Source: Candidatus Magasanikiibacteriota bacterium
Lineage (GTDB): Bacteria > Patescibacteriota > Patescibacteriia > Magasanikbacterales > GWA2-37-8
Assembly: GCA_016182085.1 (NCBI GenBank)
Contig: JACOYB010000009.1
Coordinates: 1,393-65,392, forward strand
Length of the DNA stretch: 64,000 nt
Reading direction: 5' to 3'
The notes under the pieces were generated by a model that was given only the letters and a program-made list of their open reading frames with translations, searched no databases and was not told the DNA's origin. A program made the translations under genes and the position numbers. This document shows positions 3,049 through 64,000 of the stretch, in pieces; positions within the stretch are counted from its first letter, which is position 1; each line of letters starts with the position of its first letter.

Positions 3049-3053
3049 ACTTT

Positions 3054-20449: not shown

Positions 20450-20492
20450 CGAGCTGGCAACTAGAGTCTGTTTAGAATCGGAGGGTTTAATG

Positions 20493-20559: not shown

Positions 20560-20651
20560 AGAAATTTTGACATACCTTTTTACTTGCTATAGACTTCTTT
20601 CACAAGAAGGGCTTACAACAAGCCCATCACAATTTGGGGAGGTATTTTGTC

Positions 20652-21350
20652 ATGATGCAATCGCGTTTGACTGCCAATCATGTTGTTCTAGCCGCCGACA
20701 CCCTTACACTCGAGCAGTGTTTGCGGCTCGGTCCGCTCATCGGCAATCGCGTCTACGCCGTCAAGATCCATGTCCTGTGGGATCGGCATGGGCCATCGGT
20801 CGTCAATCAGCTCAAGGAAGCTGGTTTCCGTCGGGTTTGGGTGGACCTAAAGCTGCACGATACCTCGGACACTGTCGCATTGCGCGCGAAAGAGGTGGCT
20901 GAGGCTGGAGGTGATATTGTGAGTGTGCACATATCTGGCGGCAAGAGGATGATGCAGGCTGCGAAGAAGTCAGGGATTAAGGTCTTCGGCATCACCATCC
21001 TTACCTCGCTTGAAGAGCGTGAGGTGATGGAGGTCTACCGTAGCGACGTGCTGCAGAACGTGATGTCGCTTGCGCTCAAGGCAAAGCAAGCGGGGATCGA
21101 TGGGGTCGTCTGTTCACCGCGAGAAGTTGTGGTGCTTGCTAGCTGGAACGAACTCGCTGGTCTCAAGTTCGTCACTCCCGGTGTTCGTTCGCCGGGAAAG
21201 GAAGTTCATGATCAGAAGCGTGTGGGTACGCCAGCCAAGGCCAGGGAGGACGGTTCCAACCTTCTTGTCATGGGTCGTCAGCTCACGGAGGCGGAAGATC
21301 CGGTTGTTGAGCTGGATCATGTCGAGGGGGAACTCAGCCTGCCCTCGTGA
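20652..21350 (+). CDS. pyrF: Orotidine 5'-phosphate decarboxylase
   Basis: 'DLKLHD' (DxKxxD), 'GGKRMMQAA', 'ILTS', 'GIDGVVCSPRE', 'VTPGVR', 'DQKRVGTP' and 'LVMGRQLTEAEDP' align with PyrF. RBS 'gggagg' 8 nt upstream of the ATGATG. G+C-rich. Confidence 0.8.
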   Translation: MMQSRLTANHVVLAADTLTLEQCLRLGPLIGNRVYAVKIHVLWDRHGPSVVNQLKEAGFRRVWVDLKLHDTSDTVALRAKEVAEAGGDIVSVHISGGKRMMQAAKKSGIKVFGITILTSLEEREVMEVYRSDVLQNVMSLALKAKQAGIDGVVCSPREVVVLASWNELAGLKFVTPGVRSPGKEVHDQKRVGTPAKAREDGSNLLVMGRQLTEAEDPVVELDHVEGELSLPS

Positions 21351-21481
21351 GGTACACTTCGTCGGTTGTTCTGTCGCTACAAGAAGTGATAGAACAGTCA
21401 GCAAGGTCTCCTGTTGTTGCTGTGCTAAATATTTATTAATTTAGTAGAGCAACGGAGATCTTGAAAATAGGAATTATAAAT

Positions 21482-36707: not shown

Positions 36708-36781
36708 GGAGGTCTATTTGACATAATTATCTTATATGTTAATCTTTGTATTTAAGACAAAAAAACACCAGGGAGGCATCC

Positions 36782-37159
36782 ATGAATTGGCGCGAAGTTG
36801 CAAACCGTGATGATGTGGTGGGCGGGGAGATTGAGACCCAAGAAGGGGAGTTCGTCTTCCGCGGCCCGATCGCATCTGTAGAAGTTCGTGATGACGGCCT
36901 GGTCTATTTCCAGGTTGCCTGGGCAGCCCAGAAACCGATCAGCATGGAAGGCGGATGGGTGAAGCATGAGACCACGAGCTTCGTGGCGAGTGCAGATGTT
37001 TCGGTGGAAGATATCGGTGAAGGCAAACTTCACTTCCGGACTTCGTTTGCGGAGTCTGGTACTATCTTCCTGAAGGGGAGTGGTAACAAACTTGATCCAC
37101 GCAGGGTTCGTGGCCTGCGGGTTTGCAAGAGTCACAAAAGACATGCCAAGGCTTCTTGA
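36782..37159 (+). CDS. Hypothetical protein (G+C-rich island 2, ORF A)
   Basis: RBS 'cagggagg' 6 nt upstream; downstream hairpin 'acacctttaattaggtgt' plus T-run near 37258-37290. Confidence 0.4.
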   Translation: MNWREVANRDDVVGGEIETQEGEFVFRGPIASVEVRDDGLVYFQVAWAAQKPISMEGGWVKHETTSFVASADVSVEDIGEGKLHFRTSFAESGTIFLKGSGNKLDPRRVRGLRVCKSHKRHAKAS

Positions 37160-37428
37160 GGATGAGTTTGGGCAGCCATTGTAGGGGGAAATCAGTAAGG
37201 CCGTCCAAATTGCTTTGATTATAAAAGTTGTAGTTAAAGCAATGACGGTCTTAATAAAACACACCTTTAATTAGGTGTATTTTATTATTTAAAATTGCAA
37301 AACCACCGCCCCGAACTCATCTTTGCAGATAAAATCGGAAACGGTGGTTGAAAGAATCCTCGACCGGCATCACTTGTTCCATAGATCAAATGTCCGAATA
37401 GCTAAGATTCTAGTTGGTTATTGCGTAC

Positions 37429-37740
37429 TTACTCAACGGCCTGGATAGCGTCCAGCGAGCCGAGAAGTCTGGCGATGAAGAGATCTTCGGCAGCTCCGCT
37501 GAAGTGCTGAGAAAGTTCGATCGTGATGGTGCGATCGGCGTTTCCCCGCCAGTCTCCGTAGCTGCCCACAGAGGTGAGCAATTCGTCGTCCTCAATTGAG
37601 GCCGGCGCCAGGTAGTTCTCGCTCATCCGAAGTAGTTCTCTGACAGCGCCGGTTGCGCCATGTTTGAACTGCAGTCTCAACTTACGACTGCCCTTGCGCG
37701 CCTTCCTCAGTTCGGCAAACATCTGCTCTCTCGTATTCAT
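37429..37740 (-). CDS. Hypothetical protein (island 2, ORF B)
   Basis: RBS 'ggag' before the ATG at 37740; convergent terminator hairpin 'aaccaccg…cggtggtt' near 37300-37360. Confidence 0.4.
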   Translation of the reverse strand: MNTREQMFAELRKARKGSRKLRLQFKHGATGAVRELLRMSENYLAPASIEDDELLTSVGSYGDWRGNADRTITIELSQHFSGAAEDLFIARLLGSLDAIQAVE

Positions 37741-37890
37741 ACACATCTCCGAGGTGGAATGGAATTTGTTTGTGCAGTGAACAAGGCAGGATAGTACCAT
37801 ACTTTTTGCCCCAGGTCAATTAAAACCAGCAATCATGATTGACAATAATAATTAATGTGTTAGTCTTATTTACCAGGAGAAGGAGCTATT

Positions 37891-38244
37891 ATGAAATGGA
37901 AAAAGGTTGATCGGGTAGATAAAGGGATTACCATAACCGGAAATCATGGTGTTCCGCCCACAAGATGGTGGAACCACTGGTGGCTTGCGCTCTTCGGCTG
38001 GAAGACAATTGTCACGTTTAGTCTTCCTGATGAGGTGGCGACAAGCGGGTACCGTGTTGGCTTCACGACCAAAGACGGTAAGTCATGGTGTAAGCGCACA
38101 ATCGCGCACGATAAGTTCTTTAGCATGAAAATTGGGTACGAGGATTGCAAGTTCTGGGTCAAAGCGGCCCGCAATCCCGAACAGCCCGATACCGATGGCG
38201 CAGTGATTTTGCCCGAGCTCATCAGCAGAGGGCCTCTTCACTAA
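37891..38244 (+). CDS. Hypothetical protein (island 2, ORF C), Trp-rich N-terminus
   Basis: RBS 'aggagaaggag'; terminator 38316-38346. Confidence 0.4.
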   Translation: MKWKKVDRVDKGITITGNHGVPPTRWWNHWWLALFGWKTIVTFSLPDEVATSGYRVGFTTKDGKSWCKRTIAHDKFFSMKIGYEDCKFWVKAARNPEQPDTDGAVILPELISRGPLH

Positions 38245-38315
38245 GATGCAGCCATCTTTTCCAAGACGTACCCACCGCAAGGCGTTTTGGAAATAAAAAA
38301 ACTTGCGGTTTGAGC

Positions 38316-38464: not shown

Positions 38465-38818
38465 ATGGGTAAGAAATCATTTGAAACAGGAGGTTTGTTG
38501 CCACAGAAACAGACAAGCGAAGAGAATAATGAGAATTTGGAACTTGAGAAATACGCTACCGGAGAAATAGCAAATAGTGAGATTGCCGCCAAGGAATTTG
38601 CCAAGTTTGGTTTTAAAGTGGGTGATAGGGTAGAGGTTGCAGGAAGTTTAATGGAGCCGTATGAGGGCACTATTGAATATTTTGAAGTTGAAGAGGTTGG
38701 GGCGAGAAGCGTATCTTATCGTGCCTATGTAAAGGTAAAAGGTGCAGAGGATCTATATTATTTTACATTACAAGCAATAAAACATCCTTCTTCGGCAATA
38801 AGGGTAACTAAAATTTAA
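38465..38818 (+). CDS. Hypothetical protein
   Basis: 117-aa ORF. Confidence 0.3.
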   Translation: MGKKSFETGGLLPQKQTSEENNENLELEKYATGEIANSEIAAKEFAKFGFKVGDRVEVAGSLMEPYEGTIEYFEVEEVGARSVSYRAYVKVKGAEDLYYFTLQAIKHPSSAIRVTKI

Positions 38819-38852
38819 TAGGTTATACACGGTTGCGAAATACCACCAGTGC

Positions 38853-39797
38853 TTATTTTTCAAATAACGGATGAAAATCATGGTGTGTTTTTTCTGCAAA
38901 TTTATCGGAAGCATGCACATAACGAGTGGTTGTGTCTAGAGATTCATGTCCCAAAAGTATCTGAATCGCTGCCGGATTAGCCCCGTTTTCAGCCAAATAA
39001 GTGGCAAAACCATGTCTTAGCGTATGCGCGCTAATCGGAAGGTTTATATCTAGTAATTCTCGATATTTTTTTATTTTAAATTGTAAATAGTTAGTTGAAA
39101 TTTTTTTATTTTTTTCATTATTATTTCGGCCGCGGTAGGGGACAAATAGCATTTCAGAAGTGCTGTTGCGTTTTGCCATGTAATTTTTTAAATGAGTAAC
39201 AGCTCTAGGGGTTAAATAGGCAAAGCGCTGTTTTTTACCTTTCCCAAGTATGTAAACACGTCCGGTTTGATCAATCTGGTTAACTTTTAGCGACAATAAT
39301 TCTGATATACGCATGCCGGTGGCAAATAATGTTTCTAACATAGCGCGATTGCGCAAAGCCACACGCTCGTCATCCTCATATTTCATCGGAGCTTCAATGA
39401 TTTTTATCAACTCTCCAAATTCAGGAATTTGCGCGTGTTTTTTTATATTTTTTATTAGTTTTACGGCGCCGGATGAAACAGGCGGATCATGATCCATATC
39501 TTCCATAAATTTTAAGTACGATCGGAGGGCTGACAGCATTCGATTTATGGAATAGCTGCTTAATTTTTTATTTGTTTTTTCCCCGGAAACAGATGTTTTG
39601 CGATCAGATGACGCCAAGTAGGCTTTATAGCGTAAAATATCAGTTTTATTTATTCTGTTAAAGGGTGTTTTTATATCTTCGTTTAAAAAAGTTTCAAAAG
39701 TATTTAAATCGCGTTCATAGTTATACGCAGTTTCTTCCGAGAAGTTATTTGCTTTTAAGTTTAAAATAAAATCATCTAAATAGGGAAGTTGGTTCAT
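38853..39797 (-). CDS. Tyrosine site-specific recombinase (XerC/XerD/phage-integrase family)
   Basis: 'HTLRHGFATYLAENGANPAAIQILLGHESLDTTTRYVH' carries the R..H…R..Y catalytic signature; N-terminal core-binding domain. Confidence 0.8.
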   Translation of the reverse strand: MNQLPYLDDFILNLKANNFSEETAYNYERDLNTFETFLNEDIKTPFNRINKTDILRYKAYLASSDRKTSVSGEKTNKKLSSYSINRMLSALRSYLKFMEDMDHDPPVSSGAVKLIKNIKKHAQIPEFGELIKIIEAPMKYEDDERVALRNRAMLETLFATGMRISELLSLKVNQIDQTGRVYILGKGKKQRFAYLTPRAVTHLKNYMAKRNSTSEMLFVPYRGRNNNEKNKKISTNYLQFKIKKYRELLDINLPISAHTLRHGFATYLAENGANPAAIQILLGHESLDTTTRYVHASDKFAEKTHHDFHPLFEK

Positions 39798-39903
39798 ATT
39801 TTGCTTAAATTAGGCATATTGAATTGAGTGTAAGAGATATTATACTCAATTATATACCTCGGTGCAGCTAGGGTCAATAATGCTTATCCACACCTTTCTC
39901 CCT

Positions 39904-40926
39904 CTACTTCCAATACACCTTTTCGCCAAAACGAAGATCTATATATTCCTTTGGTTTTATGGTTGGTAGAATCTGTTTAAAGGTATCTATTTGCGCGTCC
40001 AGGTTATTTTTTGGTTGGAAAATAATACTCCAGGATTCTTTGGTATCAATTACCATTCCGGCATTTACATCGTCTAAAACGAAGAATTTAGGCGCTGCCC
40101 TCCCCTGCTCGGCCAACTCTCGCTGCCAAGTAATGGCCGAGGTAATAAATTCAGTTGGTAAAATACCAGATTTCTTTAATTCAATTTCAAGATTTCGTCT
40201 GTCATATATTAAGGGGTATGTGCCAAATAGTTTTCGGATTTTTTCATAATTTGGCACATGTTTAACTGAGGATGTCGTAATAATTGGCGTGGAAGTGGTG
40301 CTGGAAGTAAACGAAATGCTTAAACTGGTGGTGGTTGTGGTTTCTTTTAAAAACTCTCCGGCCTCAACATCTGTTAAATATTTGATTGCGGTTCCTTCGC
40401 TATCCAATAAGAAATATTTCTTACCGTTATCATAAATAATAGAGGAAATTTTTTCCTTAACTTCTATATTCAATTCATTAGGAAATACTTTTGTAACCCG
40501 AACGCTTTCCAAGGATAATGTATCATATAAATCCTTTGAAATACTGCCTTCATCAACAAAGAAATAGTTATTTAAAGGAAGCCTGCTTTTCTTGTTTAAA
40601 TACTTTTGAAATACGACTTGATCCAATTCTGCCCTGGTATTATTTTCCAGTCCAAAATAATTAACTTTATTAATTCTAAAGTATGGTAAATATGCCAAGC
40701 AAGCCGCCCAGGATATAAATAAAATAAGAAGTATAATCAACTTTAGCTTGGGACTTCTCTGCTTCTGTCTTCGTTCCGCTTTAAATGGATTTGATTTATA
40801 ATGTAATGACTGGTTTGGAACGGCAACAGAGTATTGTTTTTTTCTAAAAAGGCGTAAAATTTTTTTACGCCAGCTTACGTGGGGCTTATATTTTTCAAAA
40901 GCGTGTTCAGAACGGAAATGCTTCAT
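39904..40926 (-). CDS. FtsQ/DivIB-like (POTRA) membrane-anchored protein with a Ser/Thr-rich linker
   Basis: One N-terminal TM, a POTRA-like region 'KVNYFGLENNTRAELDQ…' and low-complexity 'TTTTSLSISFTSSTTSTPIITTSS'. Confidence 0.4.
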   Translation of the reverse strand: MKHFRSEHAFEKYKPHVSWRKKILRLFRKKQYSVAVPNQSLHYKSNPFKAERRQKQRSPKLKLIILLILFISWAACLAYLPYFRINKVNYFGLENNTRAELDQVVFQKYLNKKSRLPLNNYFFVDEGSISKDLYDTLSLESVRVTKVFPNELNIEVKEKISSIIYDNGKKYFLLDSEGTAIKYLTDVEAGEFLKETTTTTSLSISFTSSTTSTPIITTSSVKHVPNYEKIRKLFGTYPLIYDRRNLEIELKKSGILPTEFITSAITWQRELAEQGRAAPKFFVLDDVNAGMVIDTKESWSIIFQPKNNLDAQIDTFKQILPTIKPKEYIDLRFGEKVYWK

Positions 40927-40937
40927 GTGTGGATAAG

Positions 40938-42179
40938 TTAAAGTTTTTTGAATCCGGTATATTTACGCAAAGCCCTTGGTATGAGTACGCTGCCATCTTT
41001 TTGTTGGTGATTTTCTATAAGCGCCAGAGGGAATCTGCTGGACACAATGGCTGTGCCATTTAGGGTGTGCGCAAATTCATTTGAACCATCTTCTTTTTTG
41101 TACTTTATATTTAACCGGCGCGCTTGATAATCCGTGCAATTGCTGGTGCTGGTAATCTCTCCATAATCATTTTTCATGGTCATCCAAGCCTCTATATCAT
41201 ATTTGCGATAAGCAGGGCCGCCCAAATCGCCACTAGCAACGTCTATTACTCTATAAGGTAACTCTAGTCCATCACAAATCTTTTGTTCTAATTTAAGCAG
41301 CTCTTGGTGCATTTTTTCACTATCTTCTGGTTTGCAATAAACAAACATTTCTAATTTAGTAAACTGGTGCACGCGGTATAATCCTTTGCTTGTTTTGCCA
41401 TAAGCGCCAGCTTCGGTGCGGAAACAATGTGATACAGCCGCGTATTTTTTTGGTCCTTTGCTTAAATCAAGCACCTCGTCGGCATGATAGCCTCCCATGG
41501 TAATTTCGGCGGTGCCGATAAGGCTAAGATCGGTATTTTCTACGGAATATACCTGGGTTTCGGTGCCGCGTGGATTAAAACCAATACCGGTTAGAATATC
41601 ATTTTTGGCTAAATCGGGGGTTTCTATTAGAGAAAAACCCTGTTTTTCCAAGATGTCCATACCGTACTGGATAAGCGCTTGATTGAGACGCACCAATTTA
41701 TTTTTAGCAAAGTAGAATTTTGAAGCGGCTACTTTGGCTCCTCTTTCAAAATCTATTAAATCTAAATTAAGCATCAGTTCGTCATGGTCTTTTGGTTGAA
41801 AAGAAAACTTGGGCGGATTGCCTTCTTTGGCCACTACTGTATAATCCTCTTCCCCGCCTATTGGACTTTCCGGATGAGTAAGATTCGGGACTCTTAACAA
41901 GAGTTCGCGATATTTAGTTTCTGTTTCTTCGGCATTTTTTTCTAAAACGGTAATATCGTCCCCCATTTTGCGGAGTCTGGCGATATCTTCTTCGCTAGGC
42001 TTGCCCTTTGATTGGCTTTTTCTTTGCGCTCGCAATGCTTCTACTTCCTGTTGGGCTGCGCGTCTTTGTTCATCTAGTTTAAGCAGCTCATCTACATCCA
42101 AATTAACATGCCGATTTTTGCAGTTCTCTTTTATCAGTTCTTTGTTTTCACGGATGAATTTTATGTCTAGCATATACAA
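40938..42179 (-). CDS. serS: Seryl-tRNA synthetase
   Basis: N-terminal coiled-coil arm and class II motifs. Confidence 0.85.
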   Translation of the reverse strand: MYMLDIKFIRENKELIKENCKNRHVNLDVDELLKLDEQRRAAQQEVEALRAQRKSQSKGKPSEEDIARLRKMGDDITVLEKNAEETETKYRELLLRVPNLTHPESPIGGEEDYTVVAKEGNPPKFSFQPKDHDELMLNLDLIDFERGAKVAASKFYFAKNKLVRLNQALIQYGMDILEKQGFSLIETPDLAKNDILTGIGFNPRGTETQVYSVENTDLSLIGTAEITMGGYHADEVLDLSKGPKKYAAVSHCFRTEAGAYGKTSKGLYRVHQFTKLEMFVYCKPEDSEKMHQELLKLEQKICDGLELPYRVIDVASGDLGGPAYRKYDIEAWMTMKNDYGEITSTSNCTDYQARRLNIKYKKEDGSNEFAHTLNGTAIVSSRFPLALIENHQQKDGSVLIPRALRKYTGFKKL

Positions 42180-55119: not shown

Positions 55120-55300
55120 TTTGTCATTGTGACTACAACCTTTTGGTCTACACGTTCCCGTAGTTGTCATTCCCATCGAAATGGGAATCCAGTCGACAAT
55201 TGTCTGGATTCCCGCTTTGGCGGGAATGACAATATATGGACAAAGATTCCTCACACAAGAGCCTGCCCTGAGCTTGTCGAATGGGTTCGGAATGACAGTG
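55120..55300. repeat. Cluster of hairpin repeats (subfamily B plus partial copies) between atpC and atpD
   Basis: 'gtcattcccatcgaaatgggaatccagtcgacaattgtctggattcccgctttggcgggaatgacaat', plus flanking 'ttgtcattg…' and '…ttcggaatgacag'. Confidence 0.65.
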
Positions 55301-55304
55301 AATG

Positions 55305-56708
<1,404 letters not shown>

Positions 56709-56725
56709 TTAATTAAACTTCTTGG

Positions 56726-56802
56726 TTGTCATCCTGAACGGAGTGAAGGATCTCTTTTGTTCGGACTGGAGGGATTCTTCGCAAAGCTTCAGAATGACAA
56801 TT
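56726..56802. repeat. Hairpin repeat (back-to-back arms) between atpD and atpG
   Basis: 'ttgtcatcctgaacggagtgaaggatctcttttgttcggactggagggattcttcgcaaagcttcagaatgacaa'. Confidence 0.7.
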
Positions 56803-56810
56803 GAAAAAAT

Positions 56811-57710
56811 TTACTCTAGCGCCATTGCCCCACCGGCGATTTCTGCAATCTCTTGGGTGATGCCCGCTTGTCTGGCTTTATTAAATGTTAGATTCAGTTC
56901 GCTTATCATATCTTTGGCTGCTTCGGATGCGTTTTTCATAGCTACCATGCGGCTGCTATGTTCGCTGGCCGAAGATTCTAACATTGTTTGATAAATTTGG
57001 GTTTCTACCAGTCTTGGTAAAATTATTTTTAAAACATCCAGTCTATTTGGCTCAAATAAATAATCAGTTAGATTATTTTTAACAACAGTTTTATCATCAG
57101 ACAATTCGGTTATCTCGGCTAGAGTTTTTTCCAAATCCGATTCGGATATTGGCAAAACTTGTCTTAGTCTGGCTGTTTGCACCAGCGCTGATTTAAAATC
57201 CGTATAAGCGACAATTACTTTGTCATAGGATTTCTTCTCATAAGCATCTATTACCATTTTGGCAATTGGCAGCGCGTCGTCAAAATTTGGCGTATCAGTC
57301 ATGTTGGTAAAGGCAGCGGTAAGATTGTAGCCCATTTTTTTGGCAAAATCAGCACCTTTCTTACCAATACCAACTACATCAACCGCGGCTTTTTCTCTAG
57401 TCATTTGCGCGGCTGTTTTCTTGATAATATTGGCATTAAAACTGCCGCACAAACCGCGATTAGAGGTAATAATAATCATTAGGATTTTTTCTACTGGCCT
57501 GGTAGCTAAAAGCGGCACTTGTTCTTTTTGAGTTTTGGAAAGATCAACCAAAAGTTCCCAAGCCAAACCGGCATAGGCGCGCGTGTCTATAGCCGCGTTT
57601 ACCGCTTTGCGCATTTTGGCAGCCGCAATCATCTCCATGGCTTTGGTAATTTTTTTGGTACTGCCAATGGATTTGAGACGACGCTTAATTACTTTTGTAT
57701 TAATTGCCAT
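56811..57710 (-). CDS. atpG: F-type ATP synthase gamma subunit
   Basis: Terminal coiled-coil helices; operon position. Confidence 0.85.
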   Translation of the reverse strand: MAINTKVIKRRLKSIGSTKKITKAMEMIAAAKMRKAVNAAIDTRAYAGLAWELLVDLSKTQKEQVPLLATRPVEKILMIIITSNRGLCGSFNANIIKKTAAQMTREKAAVDVVGIGKKGADFAKKMGYNLTAAFTNMTDTPNFDDALPIAKMVIDAYEKKSYDKVIVAYTDFKSALVQTARLRQVLPISESDLEKTLAEITELSDDKTVVKNNLTDYLFEPNRLDVLKIILPRLVETQIYQTMLESSASEHSSRMVAMKNASEAAKDMISELNLTFNKARQAGITQEIAEIAGGAMALE

Positions 57711-57773
57711 AGGTCATGATACATAATACTCACAGCATGATGCTCAGATGTATCGTGCTGCGTGAATTGTGAT

Positions 57774-59270
57774 TTATGATTTAAATTGTCCGCAAGCATC
57801 TTTTAGTTCAGCTTCTACTTTTTCATCCCACTCACCCGCTTCTAATTTCGCTAGCAGCACTCCTTTTGATTTTTCCAAAAAGGCATGCAAGCCATTTTCC
57901 CATTCCTTCATATCTTTTACAGCTACAGCGCTAGCAAAACCATTACTTACCGCATAAATTACTGCCACTTGTTGAGAAACAGAAACTGGCTCATACTGTG
58001 GCTGCTTCAATACTTCGGCTAGTCTCTGGCCAAGGTCAATCTGGTTTTTTGTTTCTGCGTCCAAATCAGAAGAAAATTGCGCAAAGGCTTCCATTTCACG
58101 GAATTGGGCCATAGCTAATTTTAATTTACCAGCAACTTTTTTCATTGGTTTGATTTGAGCGGCTCCGCCAACGCGTGATACAGACACGCCTACATTTAAA
58201 GCCGGGCGAATACCTTTGTAGAATAAATCTGTTTCCAAGAAAATTTGACCATCGGTGATGGAAATTACGTTGGTTGGAATATAGGCAGAAATATCACCGG
58301 CTTGAGTTTCAATAATAGGAAGCGCGGTAATAGAGCCTCCGCCGGATTCTTGATTGCGGCGGCAAGATCTTTCTAGTAAGCGGGAGTGTAAATAAAATAC
58401 ATCACCAGGGTAAGCTTCACGGCCCGGTGGTCTGCGAAGCAAGAGAGAAATTTCGCGGTATGCCCAAGCTTGTTTAGTCAAATCATCATACACACACAAT
58501 ACATCTTTACCTTTATCCATAAAGTATTCGGCCATTGCTACACCAGAGTACGGAGCGATATAAGACATGGCAGCTGGCTGGGATGCGCCGGCTACAACTA
58601 CGATTGTATATTCCATTGCACCAGCTTCTTTTAGTTTGGCCACAATACGAGCAACTTTGGATTCTTTCTGACCAACAGCCACATAGACACAAATAATATC
58701 TTTACCTTTTTGATTAATAATTGCATCTATTGCCACCGCGGTTTTACCGGTCTGGCGGTCGCCAATGATAAGCTCGCGCTGACCGCGGCCGATGGGAATA
58801 AGAGCGTCAATCGCTTTGATGCCGGTCTGCAATGGCTGAGTTACCGGTTCTCTAGTCATTACACCCGGAGCGATTTTTTCAATTGGCGCAAACTTACCGG
58901 TTTTGATTTCTTTGCCTCCGTCTATGGCTTGGCCAAGCGGGTTTACCACCCTGCCTACCAGCTCGTCTCCAACCGGTACAGACAAAATTCTGTTTGTTCG
59001 TTTTACCGTATCCCCTTCTTTAATATGTCGGTATTCGCCGAGTAACACACAGCCAATGGTTTCTTCTTCCAGGTTTAAGGCTAATCCGTAAGTTGTTTCT
59101 TCACCGGATCCAAACTCAATCATTTCACTCGCTTGGCATTTGGAAAGCCCCGAAAGACGAGCGATGCCGTCGCCTACTTCTATAACTTTGCCGGTTTCTT
59201 CTTTTTCGGTTTCTTTTTGGAAGAGTGAAATATTTTTCTTAATCTCTTCAACAATGTTATTTGTGGACAT
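57774..59270 (-). CDS. atpA: F-type ATP synthase alpha subunit
   Basis: 'GDRQTGKTA' P-loop. Confidence 0.9.
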
Positions 59271-59285
59271 ATTCGGTAGTTTAAT

Positions 59286-59675
59286 TTATTTGATTAAGGC
59301 TTGTTTTAATTTGTATAATTGGGTTTTGAGACTGGCATCATGGACCGTATCATCAATTTTTATTCGTATGCCGCCAAGTATTTGTTTGTTTATTTTTTGG
59401 GTTATTTCAGATTTGGCGCCAAATGTATTTATAATCTTTTCCCTGGTTTTCTCGTCAAGTTCGCGCGTAGTTTCTACTTCTATGGTTTTTATACCCGACT
59501 GTTTTTTAGAATAGCTGATAAAATCTTCAAGAATATAGTCTATTTTTTTAAGTTTATTGTACTTTTGCAGCGTAATAAAAAACTGTTTCACAACTTGCGG
59601 CAAGCTTTCCGCCGGTAAACTTTTCGTAACTTCGTACAGGGCTTTGGCAAATTGTAAATTACTTTGCTTTCGCAT
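59286..59675 (-). CDS. atpH: F-type ATP synthase delta (OSCP) subunit, short form
   Basis: Operon position; helical; 129 aa. Confidence 0.6.
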   Translation of the reverse strand: MRKQSNLQFAKALYEVTKSLPAESLPQVVKQFFITLQKYNKLKKIDYILEDFISYSKKQSGIKTIEVETTRELDEKTREKIINTFGAKSEITQKINKQILGGIRIKIDDTVHDASLKTQLYKLKQALIK

Positions 59676-59676
59676 A

Positions 59677-60234
59677 TTATTTTAGACTTTTTACCGCTTC
59701 GTCAATTATTTTATTGTCTGCTGCAGCATCTATTTTTGTGCCTAAAATTTTCTCGGCAGCAGCCACGATCAAATTGGCAGTTTGTTCCTTTATTTCGTCA
59801 AGCGATTGATCTCGTTCGGTTTTAATATTTTTTCTGGCCTGTTCCACAAGCTGTTCAATTTCCTTTCTGGTTTTTTCCTTCAACAGTTCGGCGTTTTGCA
59901 AGGCTTCAGCTTGAGCTTTTTCCAAAACTTTATTTGCGTCTACTTTGGCCTGATCTATCTTTTCCTGATATTTTTTTTCGCTCATGCCTAAGTTAGTTTC
60001 AATTTTTCTCGCATTTTCAATGCTGTCATCAATCATCTTCTGTCTCTCGGACATTTTTTTGGTCAGTGGTTTTAGAATTAAAAACCATAAAATTAATGCT
60101 ACTAAAGCAAAGTTAATAAGCTGAAAGATAAATAGGGTGCTATTTATGCCAAGCGAGGCAAGCACTCCGGTTTCAGCCGCGGCTTCGGCAGTTTTTCCGG
60201 TTATTTCTGAGGCGTGAGCAATATCTATAAACAT
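59677..60234 (-). CDS. atpF: F-type ATP synthase subunit b
   Basis: N-terminal TM plus long charged helix. Confidence 0.7.
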   Translation of the reverse strand: MFIDIAHASEITGKTAEAAAETGVLASLGINSTLFIFQLINFALVALILWFLILKPLTKKMSERQKMIDDSIENARKIETNLGMSEKKYQEKIDQAKVDANKVLEKAQAEALQNAELLKEKTRKEIEQLVEQARKNIKTERDQSLDEIKEQTANLIVAAAEKILGTKIDAAADNKIIDEAVKSLK

Positions 60235-60315
60235 AGAGCTACTAAGTATTTATTGGTTGAAAAATTATCTCGTCAAGCTCGGCCTTGTATTTCACAAGCC
60301 CGAACCGATACGAAA

Positions 60316-60537
60316 TTATTTTAAAGTAAAAACTACCACCAAAGCGTAAATGGCGATAGCTTCCGCAAAAGCGGCGCCCAAGAGCATCGGTACGAATAAC
60401 TTATCAGAAGCTTCCGGATTGCGGCCGATAGCTTCCATGGCTTTTGCCACTAGTAAACCGATAGCTATAGCCGGACCAAATCCGCCGATAGCCATTGTTA
60501 AACCCTTTGCCAGAGCTAACACTGATTCGTGTTCCAT
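60316..60537 (-). CDS. atpE: F-type ATP synthase subunit c
   Basis: Two-helix hairpin, 'GRNPE' loop, 73 aa. Confidence 0.8.
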   Translation of the reverse strand: MEHESVLALAKGLTMAIGGFGPAIAIGLLVAKAMEAIGRNPEASDKLFVPMLLGAAFAEAIAIYALVVVFTLK

Positions 60538-60661
60538 ATTTGACCTTTCCGATATCAGAGCCGGACGAGGAGGCTTGAATGTTAACCTCGCGGATAATAT
60601 CTTATTTAAATTAATTGCCTCAAATTAAGAAACTTTGTTTTAATTTTTTAATTTGAAATAA

Positions 60662-61441
60662 TTAATGTTTTTGTCCGTGTGGTTTAGTGGTCATGACCGT
60701 TAGATAAACCAGCGTAAGCATCGTGAAAACACTAGCTTGGATTAAACCAACCAAAAGTTCCAAAAGCATAAACGGAGCTGGCACCAAAGCGGCTGCGATA
60801 CTGCTAATAACGGAAATCAAAACTTCACCGGCAAAGATATTGCCGAACAGTCTTAAGGACAAAGATAAGACCTTGGCCATTTCACTGATTATCTCTATAA
60901 CTCCCACGACCAGCTCTACAACAGCTGTAAAAATTGCAACGGGCCCTTTGGTTAGGCTTTTTACAAAGGTTCCAATTTGGATGAATTTATTTAAGTGAGT
61001 GAAGATACCAACCGTAAACAACCCAAATAAGTGCGAAGAAACTACCGAAACAAGAGCCATGGCCACAGTTAAGTTTAGATCCGTATTGGCAGGTCGCAAC
61101 AATGGCGATTCCCCTACTGTAATACTTCCGGTACCCGGCAATAATCCCAGCCAATTTGATAATAAAATAAAGAAGAAGATTGAGCCGGTAATAGGCAAAA
61201 ATCTCATGGTTTTTTTGCGATCACCCGTGACTTGGTCAAAATAAACAAAAAGTTTTTCTAAAAAATATTCTAAGAAGTTTTGTGTTTTACCCGGTTTAAG
61301 TTTTATATTGCTGCGGATGATAAAACCCAAGATTAGAAAAAAGACAATAGCCAGCCATGTATTTATAATTGTGTTAGTAACGGGAAGCTTTCCAATGTGG
61401 AATAAAACTTCCGGAGCTAGGGTTGGGATATGTAATTCCAT
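60662..61441 (-). CDS. atpB: F-type ATP synthase subunit a
   Basis: Polytopic; conserved Arg in 'LSLRLFGNIFAGE'. Start is trimmed to avoid overlap with atpZ. Confidence 0.75.
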   Translation of the reverse strand: MELHIPTLAPEVLFHIGKLPVTNTIINTWLAIVFFLILGFIIRSNIKLKPGKTQNFLEYFLEKLFVYFDQVTGDRKKTMRFLPITGSIFFFILLSNWLGLLPGTGSITVGESPLLRPANTDLNLTVAMALVSVVSSHLFGLFTVGIFTHLNKFIQIGTFVKSLTKGPVAIFTAVVELVVGVIEIISEMAKVLSLSLRLFGNIFAGEVLISVISSIAAALVPAPFMLLELLVGLIQASVFTMLTLVYLTVMTTKPHGQKH

Positions 61442-61457
61442 AACTAAAGTAGGTTTT

Positions 61458-61805
61458 CTATAAATGATCTTCCGGTTTCTTTTCTTTCTTGCCGGCATCG
61501 TTTAATCTCTTGTATTGCGCGCCGTAATTTTTTGCTTTTTTGTGAATGATCTTGGCGGAAATTAGAGCCGCAAGGACAAATGCCAAAATGATAAAAAGAG
61601 GCGCGGTGTTATATTTCTTATCAATATACTGGCCAATCAGCACTAAGATTACAACCGGTACGGCTATGGAGGCGCCAAAATCACCTATAATTCGCAGAGC
61701 CAATAGATAGTAATCTCGGCTCGCCGGTTTCGGTAAATTTTCTTCGGGCATACAAAATGCACTTAAGAACGCGACTATTTTACATATATTTTTTTCTAAA
61801 GTCAA
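61458..61805 (-). CDS. atpZ: AtpZ/AtpI-family small membrane protein
   Basis: 'LRIIGDFGASIAVPVVILVLIGQYIDKKYNTAPLFIILAFVLAALISAKII'; first gene of the atp operon. Confidence 0.5.
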   Translation of the reverse strand: MTLEKNICKIVAFLSAFCMPEENLPKPASRDYYLLALRIIGDFGASIAVPVVILVLIGQYIDKKYNTAPLFIILAFVLAALISAKIIHKKAKNYGAQYKRLNDAGKKEKKPEDHL

Positions 61806-61928
61806 GTATTTTTACGGGTGGATTGTTATTGATAAAACTGTAGTTACAGAATCCAGCGCCCACACACTGCTATTTTTGTTTATTTTGGCTAATTTTAAAC
61901 TAAAAATAGATAAAATCTTGATAAAGTA

Positions 61929-61957
61929 TTGACAAAACACGAACTTATTGTTACTAT
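61929..61957 (+). promoter_or_regulatory. Sigma70-like promoter TTGACA-17-TACTAT driving the island-3 acidic ORF
   Basis: TTGACA at 61929-61934, 17-nt spacer, TACTAT at 61952-61957; RBS 'aaaggag' before the ATG at 62040. Confidence 0.5.
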
Positions 61958-62039
61958 TCTTCGTTATGTAGAAGCGGCACGCAGGGGGTGTGCAACTTCT
62001 CATAATAGACCCTAAACGGCGAAAGGAGCCGTTTTCCCG

Positions 62040-62396
62040 ATGACCGACTACCACACGGATGATGATCCCGAACTTTTTGGTCTGGAGATCGCAGGCCTTT
62101 TGGCCTGCTTCGCCGATACCGGAACCCTTCCTTCGCTAGAAGACGAGGGGGCAGAGATCACGATCAGCGAGTTTTCCGACGCTGATCTGTTCAACTGGGA
62201 GGTCGAACACGCGGTCGACACTGCCGTTGTCGTGCCGGAGCCCGCTGGGCTGAAGGCAGCAACTGCGGAACCGACCAGCGTGGATGATGGTTGGGAGATG
62301 GAAAACCCGGGTGACACCGAGGAGAATACCCAGGTTGATCGCCCGCGTCACATGATCATTACGGCAGAAGGGCCCCGTCTGGTCCACCACGAGTAA
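62040..62396 (+). CDS. Highly acidic hypothetical protein (about 29 D/E vs 4 K/R in 118 aa), G+C-rich
   Basis: MTDYHTDDDPELFGLE…; strong RBS and promoter; followed by hairpins at 62423-62485 and 62509-62543. Confidence 0.4.
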   Translation: MTDYHTDDDPELFGLEIAGLLACFADTGTLPSLEDEGAEITISEFSDADLFNWEVEHAVDTAVVVPEPAGLKAATAEPTSVDDGWEMENPGDTEENTQVDRPRHMIITAEGPRLVHHE

Positions 62397-62508
62397 TTGG
62401 GTGTGCCGGCGCGAAGCCTCTGTTCGCCGCCGCACTACCGCTTTCAAGATAAAAAATATTTGTCTTGTAAAGCGGTGGCGGCGAACTTCACAAAGAACAG
62501 ATATAACA

Positions 62509-62543
62509 AAAACCCTCCGACGTAACGTCGGAGGGTTTTTGTT
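62509..62543. terminator. Intrinsic terminator (A-tract/stem/T-tract, probably bidirectional)
   Basis: 'aaaaaccctccgacg taa cgtcggagggtttttgtt'. Confidence 0.65.
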
Positions 62544-62802
62544 ATATTGACCATTTACTTAAAAATATGGTACGAATTATTTAGGAGGGAATAACATGAA
62601 CTTTGCCGAGGGATTGATTGGAACGGCCCTGGAAATCTTCCTGAACTGGATGGCGCTCATGTACCGTATCCGGGAGCTCGTCCGGATTGACCTCTTCCCC
62701 TTGTCCTCCTAGTTAGTACCTTGTGCCGGGCTTCACGCCTAGCACGTCGTCCTAGAGAGGGTAACAACCAGCCGGCGTCACACACTGTTGTGACGCCGCA
62801 AA

Positions 62803-62840
62803 ACAAAAACAGCTTTCAACTTAAAGCTGTTTTTGTTTTC
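62803..62840 (+). terminator. Intrinsic terminator
   Basis: 'acaaaaacagcttt caactt aaagctgtttttgtttt'; preceded by a second hairpin 'ggcgtcaca…tgtgacgcc'. Confidence 0.6.
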
Positions 62841-62894
62841 AACAATTGACCCATTTTATATAAGTATGCTAGTTTACATACAGGAGGTAGTAGT

Positions 62895-63155
62895 ATGAAG
62901 AAGCACGCGACTTTCTTTGAGAACCTGGTGGATTGGATTGCGGAGACGCGGCGCACGGTGCAGCTAAACGAGGTGTTGGAAGAACTTGCTTACTGGGTGG
63001 GACAGTTCGTTATTGCGGTGAGCAGAGAGCTTACCCCCGAAGGTTTGCAGAAGTTCTTCAGCGGTTTGAGCGGCGGGTATATCAATACGATGGACCTAAA
63101 CATCGACCTGGATGGAATGCATGCCGATGAACTTCTCTGCAAGAAAAGCAGGTAG
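62895..63155 (+). CDS. Hypothetical protein (island 3)
   Basis: RBS 'acaggagg'; 86 aa. Confidence 0.35.
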   Translation: MKKHATFFENLVDWIAETRRTVQLNEVLEELAYWVGQFVIAVSRELTPEGLQKFFSGLSGGYINTMDLNIDLDGMHADELLCKKSR

Positions 63156-63266
63156 GTCACCCCTACTCCGCAAGGTCTTCGCCTCGCCCGAAAATTCGGA
63201 GCGAGGCAATGCATTTTTATAGGAGAAATGAATTAAGTTTAATTTTTTAAATATTACTGACACCCC

Positions 63267-63295
63267 TTGACAAAAGGGGTGTTTTGGTGTATACT
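63267..63295 (+). promoter_or_regulatory. Near-consensus sigma70 promoter TTGACA-17-TATACT, with a palindrome overlapping the -35
   Basis: 'caccccTTGACAaaaggggtg' ('cccctt'/'aagggg' arms), then 'ttttggtgTATACT'. Confidence 0.55.
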
Positions 63296-63421
63296 GCTGG
63301 GTTGCTCTTTTAATGACCGATGGTACCTGTCGAGGGAGAAAAATACGTTAAATTAGCATATTTTTCCCCCTCGGCACCAAATTTTCGCCGAGATAACCAG
63401 TTTCGCGAGAGGAAAACCGCC

Positions 63422-63790
63422 ATGAACACCCTGTCCAAGATCGTCACCATCCTGACCCTGGTCGCTCTGATCCTGGCCATGGCCGTCAACCCGGCCTACG
63501 CCGACCGTTCGGTGGTCCGCATCCGCAAGAACGGCCCGCTCACGCAGAAGCACCGCAACGCGATCAGCGAGATCGAGCACATCATGCGCCGGTCGGGCGA
63601 CAGCCAGAAGCGGCCGACGAAGTTCTCATACTCCTGCAACCAGGGGAACGAGAAGATTCGGCAGATCGTCGCCACCTTCCCCGCGGACGAGCAGTTCATC
63701 CTGTCGGACGAGTGGGACGGCGAGTGTTTCTTCTACATCCCGCCGACCCGGAAGGTCAACAAGGCGCCGGTGATGGTCGCCAAGAAGTAG
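63422..63790 (+). CDS. Small secreted protein (signal peptide MNTLSKIVTILTLVALILAMAVNPAYA), very G+C-rich
   Basis: RBS 'gagaggaaaa'; a leader of about 120 nt with a 15-bp stem ('cgagggagaaaaata' … 'tatttttccccctcg'); terminator 63838-63870. Confidence 0.45.
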   Translation: MNTLSKIVTILTLVALILAMAVNPAYADRSVVRIRKNGPLTQKHRNAISEIEHIMRRSGDSQKRPTKFSYSCNQGNEKIRQIVATFPADEQFILSDEWDGECFFYIPPTRKVNKAPVMVAKK

Positions 63791-63837
63791 CAACACCCTG
63801 GCCAAGGCCGCGCAAGCGACCAAGGCCGAGACAGCCC

Positions 63838-63870
63838 GAAGCCCGCACATCAGCGGGCTTCTTTATTTTT
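63838..63870 (+). terminator. Intrinsic terminator
   Basis: 'gaagcccgc acatca gcgggcttc tttattttt'. Confidence 0.65.
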
Positions 63871-64000
63871 AAAAAGAAATATTAAATAATTTTTTAGCGT
63901 TTTCTGTAGTCGCAGCTTCAACTTCGGCAAATTCTATCTGTTTCAACTGCGCGATTTTTTTAATAGTTTCCCGTATCATCGGCGGATCGCATCTTTGCCC

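What the first reader, a model, noticed from the sequence alone, without database searches (positions are those of the whole stretch)
61990..63880. Third G+C-rich island: acidic protein, 38-aa peptide, 86-aa protein and secreted protein, each with its own promoter and terminator
The island holds at least three separate transcription units. These are 62040..62396, a possible 38-aa ORF at 62596..62712, 62895..63155 and 63422..63790. Two near-consensus sigma70 promoters (61929-61957 and 63267-63295) and four clean intrinsic terminators are present. G+C is markedly higher than the adjacent atp operon. The density of regulatory punctuation around tiny ORFans is typical of phage or plasmid accessory genes.
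Basis: seen in the sequence. Interest (0 to 1): 0.55.

Follow-up and report, generated by a model that had tools for sequence, protein, structure and literature searches.

The report
Fast-evolving small-gene island in Magasanikbacteria
Between the tatD gene and the ATP-synthase operon of an uncultured groundwater bacterium (Candidatus Magasanikbacteria) lies a real 2-kb insert of four small, G+C-rich, fast-evolving genes of unknown function, each with its own promoter and terminator; it is a lineage-specific chromosomal islet held in a conserved non-coding framework, and nothing links it to a phage or plasmid.

Summary
There are four ORFs with Shine-Dalgarno sites, four promoters (two near-consensus, two extended -10) and four strong terminator hairpins. 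ORF G+C is 51-62% against 39% nearby. The junctions are not chimeric: a second assembly is identical across them, and a relative with about 89% nucleotide identity has the same island.

The phage/plasmid reading is not supported. No mobility gene, phage, plasmid or IMG/VR relative was found.

The window comes from a Candidatus Magasanikbacteria MAG. The tatD|atpI junction is an insertion hot spot: it is empty (115 bp or less) in 35 of 72 species and filled with 0.2-7.4 kb in the rest.

In the closest clade the inserts are versions of one array:
- an acidic protein gene followed by a covarying 26-bp hairpin;
- small peptides;
- family F (the 86-aa protein);
- exported Cys-containing proteins, including B (the 122-aa protein).

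The hairpin-terminator-promoter module and a leader stem-loop are conserved across these lineages. The proteins are not: F and B keep only 25-34% identity.

dN/dS is 0.5-0.9 for the island genes against 0.01-0.13 for the flanks. B keeps GC3 of 0.91-0.99 across lineages whose core synonymous sites are saturated, which a fading transfer signal does not predict and which remains unexplained. Function is unknown; I infer an envelope or extracellular interaction role.

The parts
61777..61805 (-). Promoter of the atp operon (TTGACT-17-TAAAAT). It marks the left boundary of the island.
   Evidence: Promoter scan. The block is conserved in L004, L010 and L011.
61866..61881 (+). The 3' half of a terminator (GCTATTTTTGTTT) that lacks its 5' arm. 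I read it as the scar of a lost upstream cassette.
   Evidence: L038 has the complete terminator AAACAAAAATAGCTTTTTCAAGGCTATTTTTGTTT after an extra gene, followed by the same TTATTTTGGCTAATT...GTATTGACAAAA. This is an inference.
61929..61957 (+). Promoter P1 of the 118-aa gene (TTGACA-17-TACTAT, with TG before the -10).
   Evidence: It is identical in L011.
61958..62039 (+). 5' UTR of the 118-aa gene, with two hairpins. The second holds the AGGAG in its loop.
   Evidence: Fold of -31.0 kcal/mol, z-score -2.85.
62040..62396 (+). Gene for a 118-aa acidic cytoplasmic protein (pI 4.05).
   Evidence: The L011 ortholog is 86% identical with in-frame indels. dN/dS is 0.79. A weak homolog lies upstream of the same hairpin in L014 (42% over 60 aa, E 8e-5). 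Only two clusters exist among 5.8e9.
62422..62485 (+). Conserved 26-bp hairpin in the 3' UTR of the acidic gene, with a CACTA bulge and an AGATAAA..TTGTCTT tip.
   Evidence: Fold of -40.5 kcal/mol, z-score -9.2. 97.6% of cells are paired and 8 pairs have compensatory changes. Covariance model R1 hits once per island in 8 islands and nowhere else in 1.3 Mb.
62501..62547 (+). Terminator T1, a perfect 23-bp palindrome with an A-tract and a T-tract (bidirectional).
   Evidence: -35.5 kcal/mol. The stem covaries between islands.
62547..62576 (+). Promoter P2 (TTGACC, 18-nt spacer, TGgTACGAA; extended -10 type).
   Evidence: Read from the sequence. ATTGAC and AAAATATGRTA are conserved in 8 islands.
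62596..62712 (+). 38-aa ORF encoding a moderately hydrophobic peptide. It is probably a gene; the evidence is weaker than for the other three.
   Evidence: AGGAGG lies 7 nt upstream. GC by codon position is 0.49/0.33/0.82. The ORF is intact in L011, with 6 replacement and 3 silent changes.
62773..62839 (+). G+C-rich hairpin (62773-62798) followed by terminator T2 (62800-62839).
   Evidence: -37.4 kcal/mol, z-score -8.8.
62846..62875 (+). Promoter P3 (TTGACC, 18-nt spacer, TGcTAGTTT; extended -10 type).
   Evidence: Read from the sequence. It is identical in L011.
62895..63155 (+). Gene for the 86-aa helical protein, family F.
   Evidence: Homologs with 25-34% identity lie at the same site in L004/L016, L010 and L012, and one with 83% identity in L011. 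dN/dS is 0.48. The exhaustive HMM search found only a handful of small relatives.
63181..63218 (+). Terminator T3 of the F gene.
   Evidence: -21.0 kcal/mol, z-score -4.1. The same CCTCGCCCGA..TTCGG.GCGAGG hairpin follows F in L010, L004 and L012.
63267..63295 (+). Promoter P4 (TTGACA-17-TATACT, 11/12).
   Evidence: Conserved in L011, L010 and L004.
63296..63421 (+). 126-nt leader of the B gene. It contains the conserved leader stem-loop at 63328-63376.
   Evidence: Covariance model R2 hits 63323-63382 (60 bits). All other hits lie inside islands, upstream of the A, B, E or acidic genes. 82% of cells are paired and 8 pairs have changes on both sides. No Rfam family matches.
63422..63790 (+). 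Gene for the 122-aa precursor of an exported basic protein, family B. The signal peptide ends AVNPAYA|D; the mature protein is about 95 aa, pI 9.8, with 2 conserved Cys.
   Evidence: GC3 is 0.96. dN/dS is 0.87. The AF2 model has pLDDT 67.8 and no PDB fold match.
63838..63870 (+). Terminator T4, facing the 3' end of tatD (tatD stop codon at 63869-63871, minus strand). It marks the right boundary.
   Evidence: -18.7 kcal/mol. tatD continues in L001.

Best explanation
What it is. This is a lineage-specific flexible islet of the Magasanikbacteria chromosome. It sits at a recurrent insertion hot spot between the 3' end of tatD and the promoter of the atp operon, and it is oriented antisense to both neighbours.

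History (inferred). An array of small genes was present in the ancestor of the subclade closest to the window. It has since been inherited with its flanks and remodelled by cassette loss, reordering and rapid protein divergence. It was probably also exchanged through the conserved flanks.

Expression (inferred from sequence). Each gene is a separate unit made of a sigma-70-type promoter, a Shine-Dalgarno site, an ORF and an intrinsic terminator. This keeps antisense transcription out of tatD and the atp operon. The non-coding framework is under stronger constraint than the proteins. That framework comprises the leader stem-loop, the 3'-UTR hairpin after the acidic gene and the terminator-promoter modules.

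Products. B is exported by the Sec pathway as a basic protein of about 95 aa, probably disulfide-bonded. The 118-aa protein is acidic and cytoplasmic. F is helical. The 38-aa product is a small hydrophobic peptide.

Function (inferred, low confidence). The high replacement rates and the exported or membrane-type products point to an interaction at the cell envelope or outside the cell, with a host, a competitor or a phage.

Composition. The G+C richness does not behave like a fading trace of recent transfer and seems to be maintained. The cause is unknown.
For: Real locus. The Logan contig L001 is 100% identical to window 60017-64000 and continues into tatD and cvpA. L011, from a different study, has the same four genes and both junctions at about 89% nucleotide identity.

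Hot spot. Of 72 species loci, 35 have a tatD-atpI gap of 115 bp or less and 37 have 0.2-7.4 kb. In the nearest clade the inserts are 0.47-0.52 G+C against flanks of 0.37-0.40.

Shared ancestry of the arrays.
- F and B homologs lie at the same site in L004/L016, L010, L012 and L023.
- The acidic gene plus hairpin module is present in L014, L015 and L038.
- A module of about 190 nt has 59 invariant columns across 8 islands.
- R1 and R2 hit only inside islands.

Coding status and speed.
- GC3 exceeds GC2 in the annotated frame of every ORF.
- dN/dS is 0.48-0.87 for the island against 0.01-0.13 for atpA through atpI, tatD and cvpA.
- In a second genome pair, A is 0.31, B 0.85 and D 0.26, against a core of 0.06-0.14.

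Recombination nearby. Between the window and L011, atpA and atpH have dS of about 1.3 while atpE through cvpA have 0.08-0.28.

Maintained composition. B has GC3 of 0.91-0.99 in five lineages whose core dS is 0.9 or higher up to saturated, with flank GC3 of 0.27-0.47.
Against: - No transcript, protein or phenotype data exist, so promoters, terminators and export are predictions only.
- Protein function is entirely unknown. There is no Pfam, PHROG, PADLOC or PDB-fold match.
- dN/dS near 0.85 for B is close to neutral. Function rests on ORF integrity, the conserved Cys residues and the conserved signal peptide.
- The common-ancestor scenario rests on weak similarities (25-42% identity) and few lineages. 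Repeated imports from an unsampled pool cannot be excluded.
- The covariation comes from about three independent lineages.
- The 38-aa ORF is supported by only one close comparison.
- The 'maintained' reading of GC3 is not the only one. B's low dS between L010 and L016 could instead mean a later exchange of B between those lineages.
Confidence: 0.72

Rival explanations
1. The island is a remnant of a prophage, plasmid or other mobile element, carrying moron-type accessory genes recently brought in from a high-G+C donor.
For: - Each gene has its own promoter and terminator and a deviating G+C content, as in the description of morons.
- The site is empty in 35 of 72 species.
- Genomic islands are reported to be common in Patescibacteria (PMC12455944).
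Against: - There are no phage, plasmid or IMG/VR matches at the DNA or protein level and no PHROG family.
- No integrase, transposase, tRNA gene or flanking direct repeats were found.
- The same families and the same non-coding modules sit at the same site in lineages whose core synonymous sites are saturated. The array is therefore old.
- Island dS matches the flanks between the window and L011.
- GC3 has not drifted towards the genome value.
Confidence: 0.12
2. The island is a competition locus of the bacteriocin/toxin plus immunity type. The basic exported proteins (B, and A in relatives) would be toxins, and the acidic or small membrane proteins would be their immunity partners.
For: - The mature exported protein is basic (pI 9.8) and has conserved Cys residues. 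It is encoded near an acidic protein (pI 4.05) and a small hydrophobic peptide.
- Evolution is rapid and gene content varies between strains.
- Relatives carry single-pass membrane peptides of 51-72 aa in the same array.
Against: - No homology to any known toxin, immunity protein or export system was found, and no fold match.
- B and the acidic gene are not adjacent and do not co-occur consistently. L014, L015 and L038 have the acidic gene without B.
- Every gene is transcribed separately, unlike typical toxin-immunity operons.
Confidence: 0.15
3. The G+C-rich segments are structured non-coding RNAs or non-functional DNA, and the ORFs are by-products of the scarcity of stop codons in G+C-rich sequence.
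For: - G+C-rich stretches here carry overlapping ORFs on both strands.
- dN/dS of 0.8-0.9 for the 118-aa and B genes is close to neutral.
- The region does contain conserved RNA structures.
Against: - Composition has a period of 3 in the annotated frames, with GC3 0.66-0.96 against GC2 0.32-0.41.
- Shine-Dalgarno and ATG are correctly spaced after promoters.
- The signal peptide, the AVNPAYAD motif and two Cys are conserved in B at 25% identity.
- F aligns over its full length across lineages.
- Indels are in frame.
- No Rfam family reaches its gathering score.
Confidence: 0.05
4. The island is an assembly or binning chimera that joins foreign G+C-rich DNA to the atp contig.
For: The composition steps sharply at about 61,990 and about 63,870.
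Against: - An independent assembler (Logan, SRR12113430) gives the identical sequence across both junctions.
- L011, from another study, has the same junctions.
- Eight related islands share the framework at the same site.
Confidence: 0.01

Closest known systems
Phage morons (HK97/HK022 type; PMC3594210)
   Same: They are single genes added between conserved neighbours. Each has its own promoter and terminator, and a G+C content unlike the surrounding genes.
   Different: The island is not in a phage genome and its neighbours are housekeeping genes. No phage relatives were found. The units form an inherited array with shared regulatory RNA elements. The compositional deviation persists over deep divergence.
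Flexible genomic islands and integration hot spots, including the genomic islands reported in Patescibacteria (PMC12455944)
   Same: The content between conserved flanking genes is variable. Related species have empty sites. Composition deviates from the genome, and ORFans of unknown function are enriched.
   Different: The island is very small (2 kb) and has no integrase, tRNA gene or direct repeats. Its non-coding framework is better conserved than its genes. Every gene is monocistronic.
Integron cassette arrays
   Same: It is a row of small, unrelated, co-oriented ORFs separated by hairpin-forming sequences. Cassette content and order differ between relatives.
   Different: There is no intI gene and no attI site. 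The hairpins are terminators with T-runs, or a single-copy 26-bp hairpin lacking the RYYYAAC...GTTRRRY ends. Each gene has its own promoter.
Structured 5' leaders (riboswitches, attenuators and similar cis-regulatory RNAs)
   Same: A conserved stem-loop with compensatory changes lies in the 5' UTR of several genes of one locus. Sequence segments that could form an alternative pairing are visible.
   Different: No Rfam family matches and no ligand or binding factor is known. A thermodynamic test of Shine-Dalgarno occlusion across nine leaders gave no consistent switch.

Membership tests
Phage moron | Own promoter and own terminator around a single gene | tested here: met
   Four promoter-like sites and four terminator hairpins bracket the four ORFs. 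They are conserved in relatives. These are sequence predictions only.
Phage moron | [quoted passage not shown] | tested here: met
   ORF G+C is 0.51-0.62 against 0.39 nearby. GC3 is 0.66-0.96 against a median of 0.40.
Phage moron | Located within a phage or prophage genome, between phage genes | tested here: not met
   The flanks are atpI/atpB and tatD/cvpA. There are no phage or IMG/VR matches and no significant PHROG match (best E 0.008).
Classical genomic island | Present in some relatives and absent from others at the same site | tested here: met
   35 of 72 species have a gap of 115 bp or less; 37 have 0.2-7.4 kb.
Classical genomic island | Integrase or other mobility gene, tRNA target, flanking direct repeats | tested here: not met
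   The window has no tRNA gene. Neighbouring genes carry no integrase or transposase Pfam family. No direct repeat brackets the island.
Integron cassette array | intI integrase and attI next to the array | tested here: not met
   The genes on both sides are atp genes and tatD/cvpA/tRNA synthetase.
Integron cassette array | An attC site (RYYYAAC...GTTRRRY imperfect palindrome) after each cassette, and promoterless cassettes | tested here: not met
   The only long non-terminator palindrome starts GTTCGCC and ends GGCGAAC. It occurs once per island. Each gene has its own promoter.
Any Rfam RNA family (for the leader and the 3'-UTR hairpin) | Score at or above the family's gathering threshold | tested here: not met
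   There were no hits at gathering thresholds in the whole window. The best sub-threshold hit was His_leader at 36.6 bits against a threshold of 49, on the hairpin plus terminator.
Known anti-phage defence systems (PADLOC) | Match to a defence-protein model | tested here: not met
   No families matched any of 10 island proteins from the window and its relatives.
Sec-exported protein (for the 122-aa product) | N-terminal positively charged, hydrophobic and AxA signal-peptide regions | tested here: met
   The sequence is MNTLSK, then a 19-residue hydrophobic core (mean Kyte-Doolittle 2.44), then AYA|D. The AVNPAYAD motif is shared with distant homologs. No dedicated predictor was available, and export itself was not tested.

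The most novel reading that the evidence does not exclude
The islet may be a dedicated effector array of an episymbiotic CPR lineage with three unusual properties:
- a conserved non-coding framework (two new cis-acting RNA elements plus reusable terminator-promoter modules) that hosts rapidly diversifying small exported, membrane and acidic proteins;
- extreme GC3 (up to 0.99 in a 39% G+C genome) that is actively maintained by selection on synonymous sites or by locus-specific GC-biased gene conversion;
- cassette gain, loss and shuffling that need no integrase.
Probability: 0.25. Interest if true: 0.65.

Novelty: new variant of a known kind. Interest (0 to 1): 0.45.

Why it matters
CPR/Patescibacteria are thought to live attached to other cells, yet the molecules that mediate this are almost unknown. 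This locus offers four things.
- It names a small, well-delimited set of candidate molecules: fast-evolving exported and small proteins.
- It provides two candidate regulatory RNA motifs that are conserved and specific to the locus.
- It defines a comparative system. One chromosomal site is empty or variously filled in 72 species, so gene gain, loss and divergence in reduced genomes can be followed there.
- The persistence of GC3 above 0.9 in an A+T-rich genome tests the usual rule that deviant G+C means recent transfer. This one locus gives a concrete place to distinguish selection on synonymous sites, biased gene conversion and repeated import.

Tried and rejected
- Pfam, PHROGs and PADLOC gave no significant match for the window proteins or for families A-F of relatives. 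The best hits were phrog_25836 at E 0.008 and TauD at E 0.011, both rejected as noise.
- Homolog searches in 5.8e9 clusters found F in 4 clusters, B in 5 and the 118-aa protein in 2, all from this clade.
- The exhaustive HMM search for F added two small relatives and some repeat proteins.
- The AF2 model of B is moderate (pLDDT 67.8) and has no PDB fold match with E below 2. The AF2 model of F is too poor to search with (pLDDT 57).
- Phage and plasmid blastn, IMG/VR scans and JGI metagenome scans gave nothing, or only the already known Rifle contigs.
- Rfam at gathering and at relaxed thresholds returned only generic hairpin-plus-terminator look-alikes.
- attC or integron reading of the hairpin: rejected. 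The end motifs are wrong, it is single-copy, and there is no intI.
- dif/Xer site reading of the hairpin tip: considered, not tested, and dropped. The skew-inferred terminus lies about 20 kb away.
- Leader as a switch that occludes the Shine-Dalgarno site: blocking the 5' arm in silico did not change accessibility consistently across nine leaders. This is inconclusive, so I claim only a conserved stem-loop.
- Homology between the 118-aa protein and families D or E: not detected by BLASTP. Only a motif-level resemblance (DDGW or FDWDE) was seen by eye, and I do not claim it.
Full report
**Source and setting**

The window belongs to a Candidatus Magasanikbacteria (CPR/Patescibacteria) MAG. The 118-, 86- and 122-aa proteins are NCBI MBI2038266-68, locus tags HYT15_05100/05105/05110, on a 72-kb contig. 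To the left of the finding lies the atp operon on the minus strand. Its first gene, atpI, occupies 61458-61751, and its promoter lies at 61805-61777. To the right, from 63869, is the 3' end of tatD on the minus strand, followed by cvpA. tatD and the atp operon point the same way. The island genes all lie on the opposite strand.

**Check of the observation**

The four ORFs exist as stated, and each ATG follows a Shine-Dalgarno motif.

Promoters:
- The two quoted promoters score 10/12 and 11/12 in the consensus scan.
- Promoter-like sites are not enriched in the region as a whole (6 found against 4.2 expected). Their value comes from position and conservation.
- The 38-aa and 86-aa genes have TTGACC + 18 nt + TGnTA... 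promoters of the extended -10 type, which I read from the sequence.
- The one that follows the hairpin is conserved in all eight related islands.

Terminators:
- The four terminator hairpins fold at -18.7 to -37.4 kcal/mol, with z-scores of -4.1 to -11.5.

Composition:
- ORF G+C is 0.51-0.62 and GC3 is 0.66, 0.82, 0.69 and 0.96. The median GC3 of 62 window ORFs is 0.40.
- Spacers are 0.37-0.44 G+C.

Protein features:
- The 118-aa protein has a pI of 4.05.
- The 122-aa protein has a signal-peptide-like N-terminus ending AYA|D and a basic mature part (pI 9.8) with two Cys.

**Not an artefact**

A Logan contig from SRR12113430 is 100% identical to window 60017-64000 and runs on into tatD, cvpA and a tRNA synthetase gene. 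L011 (GCA_964619625, from another study) carries the same four genes between the same neighbours. Nucleotide identity is about 89% overall and 84-92% over the ORFs.

**The site is a hot spot**

I fetched the atpB neighbourhood from 80 Magasanikbacteria species genomes. Of these, 72 have tatD next to atpI.
- In 35 of them the gap is 115 bp or less.
- In 37 it holds 0.2-7.4 kb.
- In the clade nearest the window (tatD at least 72% identical) the inserts are 0.47-0.52 G+C against flanks of 0.37-0.40. Local 300-nt windows reach 0.57-0.67.
- Several more distant species also hold a single G+C-rich ORF at this site.

**The inserts of the near clade are versions of one array**

L010 and L004/L016 carry six genes:
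- A: exported, 137 aa, four Cys.
- B: exported, about 128 aa.
- C: 119 aa.
- D: acidic, 86-88 aa.
- E: 126-149 aa.
- F: 85 aa.

Links between these arrays and the window:
- The window's 122-aa protein is a B homolog (21-29% identity). It shares the AVNPAYAD signal-peptide end and both Cys.
- The window's 86-aa protein is an F homolog (25-34% identity, full length).
- The window's 118-aa protein resembles the acidic protein that precedes the same hairpin in L014 (42% over 60 aa, E 8e-5 in a small database).
- L014, L015 and L038 have an acidic gene, the hairpin and small membrane-type peptides, but neither B nor F.
- L023 has A-like and B-like exported proteins.

Gene order differs between arrays. 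In L010 and L004, B is second in the array. In the window, B comes last.

At 61866-61881 the window keeps only the 3' half of a terminator. That terminator is complete in L038, where it ends an extra upstream gene. I read this as the scar of a lost cassette.

**The families are tiny**

Among 5.8e9 protein clusters, F has 4, B has 5 and the 118-aa protein has 2. All come from this clade. An exhaustive profile search for F added two more small relatives. Nothing matches Pfam, PHROGs, PADLOC, phage or plasmid records, or IMG/VR.

**A conserved non-coding framework**

The 3'-UTR hairpin:
- Downstream of the acidic gene lies a 26-bp hairpin (window 62422-62485; -40.5 kcal/mol, z-score -9.2).
- Across eight islands 97.6% of pair cells are paired, against 39-52% when the partners are slid.
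- Eight pairs show changes on both sides. The CACTA bulge and the AGATAAA..TTGTCTT tip are conserved.
- The alignment was fitted to the model, and the lineages number about three, so this is good but not overwhelming evidence.
- Model R1 finds exactly one copy per island and none elsewhere in 1.3 Mb.

The terminator-promoter module:
- The hairpin is followed by a terminator whose stem covaries, then by ATTGAC(C/T) and AAAATATGRTA.
- This module of about 190 nt has 59 invariant columns across eight islands.
- The ORFs on either side of it are unalignable or about 30% identical.

The leader stem-loop:
- The B leader contains a stem-loop (63328-63376).
- Its family (model R2) occurs only inside these islands, upstream of the A, B, E or acidic genes, at up to three copies per island.
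- 82% of cells are paired, eight pairs show compensatory changes, and 0 of 500 shuffles reach the observed covariation score.
- No Rfam family fits either element.
- I saw segments that could pair alternatively with the 3' arm. However, an in-silico test of Shine-Dalgarno exposure across nine leaders gave no consistent effect.

I therefore claim a conserved leader stem-loop, not a demonstrated switch.

**Evolutionary rates**

Window against L011 (Nei-Gojobori):

| Gene or group | dN/dS | dS |
|---|---|---|
| 118-aa protein | 0.79 | 0.08 |
| 38-aa peptide | 0.58 | 0.12 |
| 86-aa protein (F) | 0.48 | 0.17 |
| 122-aa protein (B) | 0.87 | 0.18 |
| atpF, atpE, atpB, atpI, tatD, cvpA | 0.00-0.12 | 0.08-0.41 |
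| atpA, atpH | 0.05-0.13 | about 1.3 |

The 38-aa value rests on only 9 changes.

L010 against L016:
- dN/dS is 0.31 for A, 0.85 for B, 0.10 for C, 0.26 for D and 0.17 for F.
- Core genes are 0.06-0.14.

Across the deeper split (window against L010 or L016):
- Core dN is 0.02-0.17, against 0.6 for F and 0.88 for B.
- Core synonymous sites are saturated.

The proteins are kept as intact ORFs. They show in-frame indels, a conserved signal peptide and conserved Cys residues. Their amino-acid sequences nevertheless change several-fold to tens-of-fold faster than those of their neighbours.

The atp operon itself is a recombination mosaic between the window and L011, with dS of about 1.3 in atpA and atpH against 0.08-0.28 from atpE to cvpA. 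Homologous exchange through the flanks is therefore plausible.

**The composition puzzle**

B has GC3 of 0.96 in the window, 0.99 in L011, 0.92 in L010, 0.98 in L016 and 0.94 in L023. Flanking genes have 0.27-0.47. The GC3 ranking of the families is the same in different lineages: B is highest, then A, then F, E and D, with C lowest.

Between L010 and L016, B has a dS of 0.22, against 0.6-1.9 for core genes. A fading signal of an old transfer would not look like this. Three explanations remain open:
- constraint at synonymous sites, acting on codon choice or mRNA properties;
- GC-biased gene conversion at a recombination hot spot;
- repeated import from an unsampled high-G+C pool.

I could not separate these, and the low dS could also reflect a more recent exchange of B.

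**How it most likely works**

*Shown*
- The anatomy of the island.
- Its conservation at a fixed site.
- The variable content of that site.
- Locus-specific conserved RNA-like structures.
- Accelerated protein evolution.

*Inferred from sequence*
- Four independent sigma-70-type transcription units, insulated by terminators because the array runs antisense to tatD and the atp operon.
- Sec export of B, with cleavage after AYA.

*Inferred with low confidence*
- The products act at the envelope or outside the cell in an interaction that drives diversification, whether with a host, a competitor or a phage.
- A toxin-immunity reading is possible: a basic exported protein together with acidic and small membrane proteins. 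Its weakness is that B and the acidic gene do not co-occur consistently.

**Comparison with known systems**

[quoted passage not shown] The defining phage context is absent. The locus fits the broad class of flexible genomic islands, which are known to be frequent in Patescibacteria (PMC12455944). It lacks integrase, tRNA and repeat hallmarks, and its scaffold is better conserved than its cargo. It is not an integron: there is no intI, no attC consensus, and every cassette has a promoter.

**Verdict**

This is a real and well-delimited feature. It is a new variant of a known kind, a small integrase-less chromosomal islet, with three features worth following up: two candidate RNA motifs, fast-evolving exported and small proteins in a CPR lineage, and a maintained extreme GC3. 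Interest is moderate at 0.45.

Noticed in passing
window 1-64000 (switch near 38,800-41,000): GC skew is positive up to about 41 kb and negative after it. Gene orientation flips from + to - at about 38.8 kb. This is the pattern expected at a replication terminus.
   Followed up: no
window 19697-21450: This is another G+C-rich islet. It holds a 235-aa ORF with no Pfam hit and an OMP decarboxylase gene (PF00215, E 2.5e-37). Each has a TTGAC-type promoter and a terminator, and both are antisense to their neighbours. A nucleotide-synthesis gene of deviant composition is unexpected in a CPR genome.
   Followed up: partly
window 36750-38250 and 10945-11568: These are further GC3 outliers. The first holds three ORFans of 125, 103 (minus strand) and 117 aa, built the same way with promoter, Shine-Dalgarno site and terminator. 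The second is a 207-aa ORF with GC3 of 0.57. Neither contains the R1 hairpin or the R2 leader.
   Followed up: partly
window 1700-5164: This is the opposite kind of compositional patch. It is a run of genes at 0.28-0.35 G+C with GC3 of 0.22-0.35, well below the window median.
   Followed up: no
window 55,300-59,700 compared with 60,000-64,000 (against L011): Divergence from L011 is a mosaic. atpD, atpG, atpA and atpH are about 80% identical (dS about 1.3), while atpE through cvpA, including the island, are 90-98% identical (dS 0.08-0.28). This points to a recombination breakpoint around atpF.
   Followed up: partly
L004 3,780-3,960 and 7,400-7,500 (also in L016): In the Rifle genome an A+T-rich block of 3.6 kb with four genes lies between the atp promoter and the G+C-rich array. 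It is bounded by a partial duplicate of the atpI 5' end and the atp promoter. This may be the footprint of a second insertion at the same hot spot.
   Followed up: no
L038 8,200-8,260 and L015 8,330-8,385: In these islands, the promoter after the hairpin is followed within about 6-15 nt by an ATG with no Shine-Dalgarno motif. These small peptide genes may therefore be leaderless.
   Followed up: no
protein P0024 (313 aa, from the exhaustive search with family F): This protein is built of repeats of FLSK[IVL][ST]GG[LIM]I[NT]T[VL]P. The repeats resemble the conserved FFSGLSGGYINTMD segment of family F (E 1e-4, six matched stretches).
   Followed up: no
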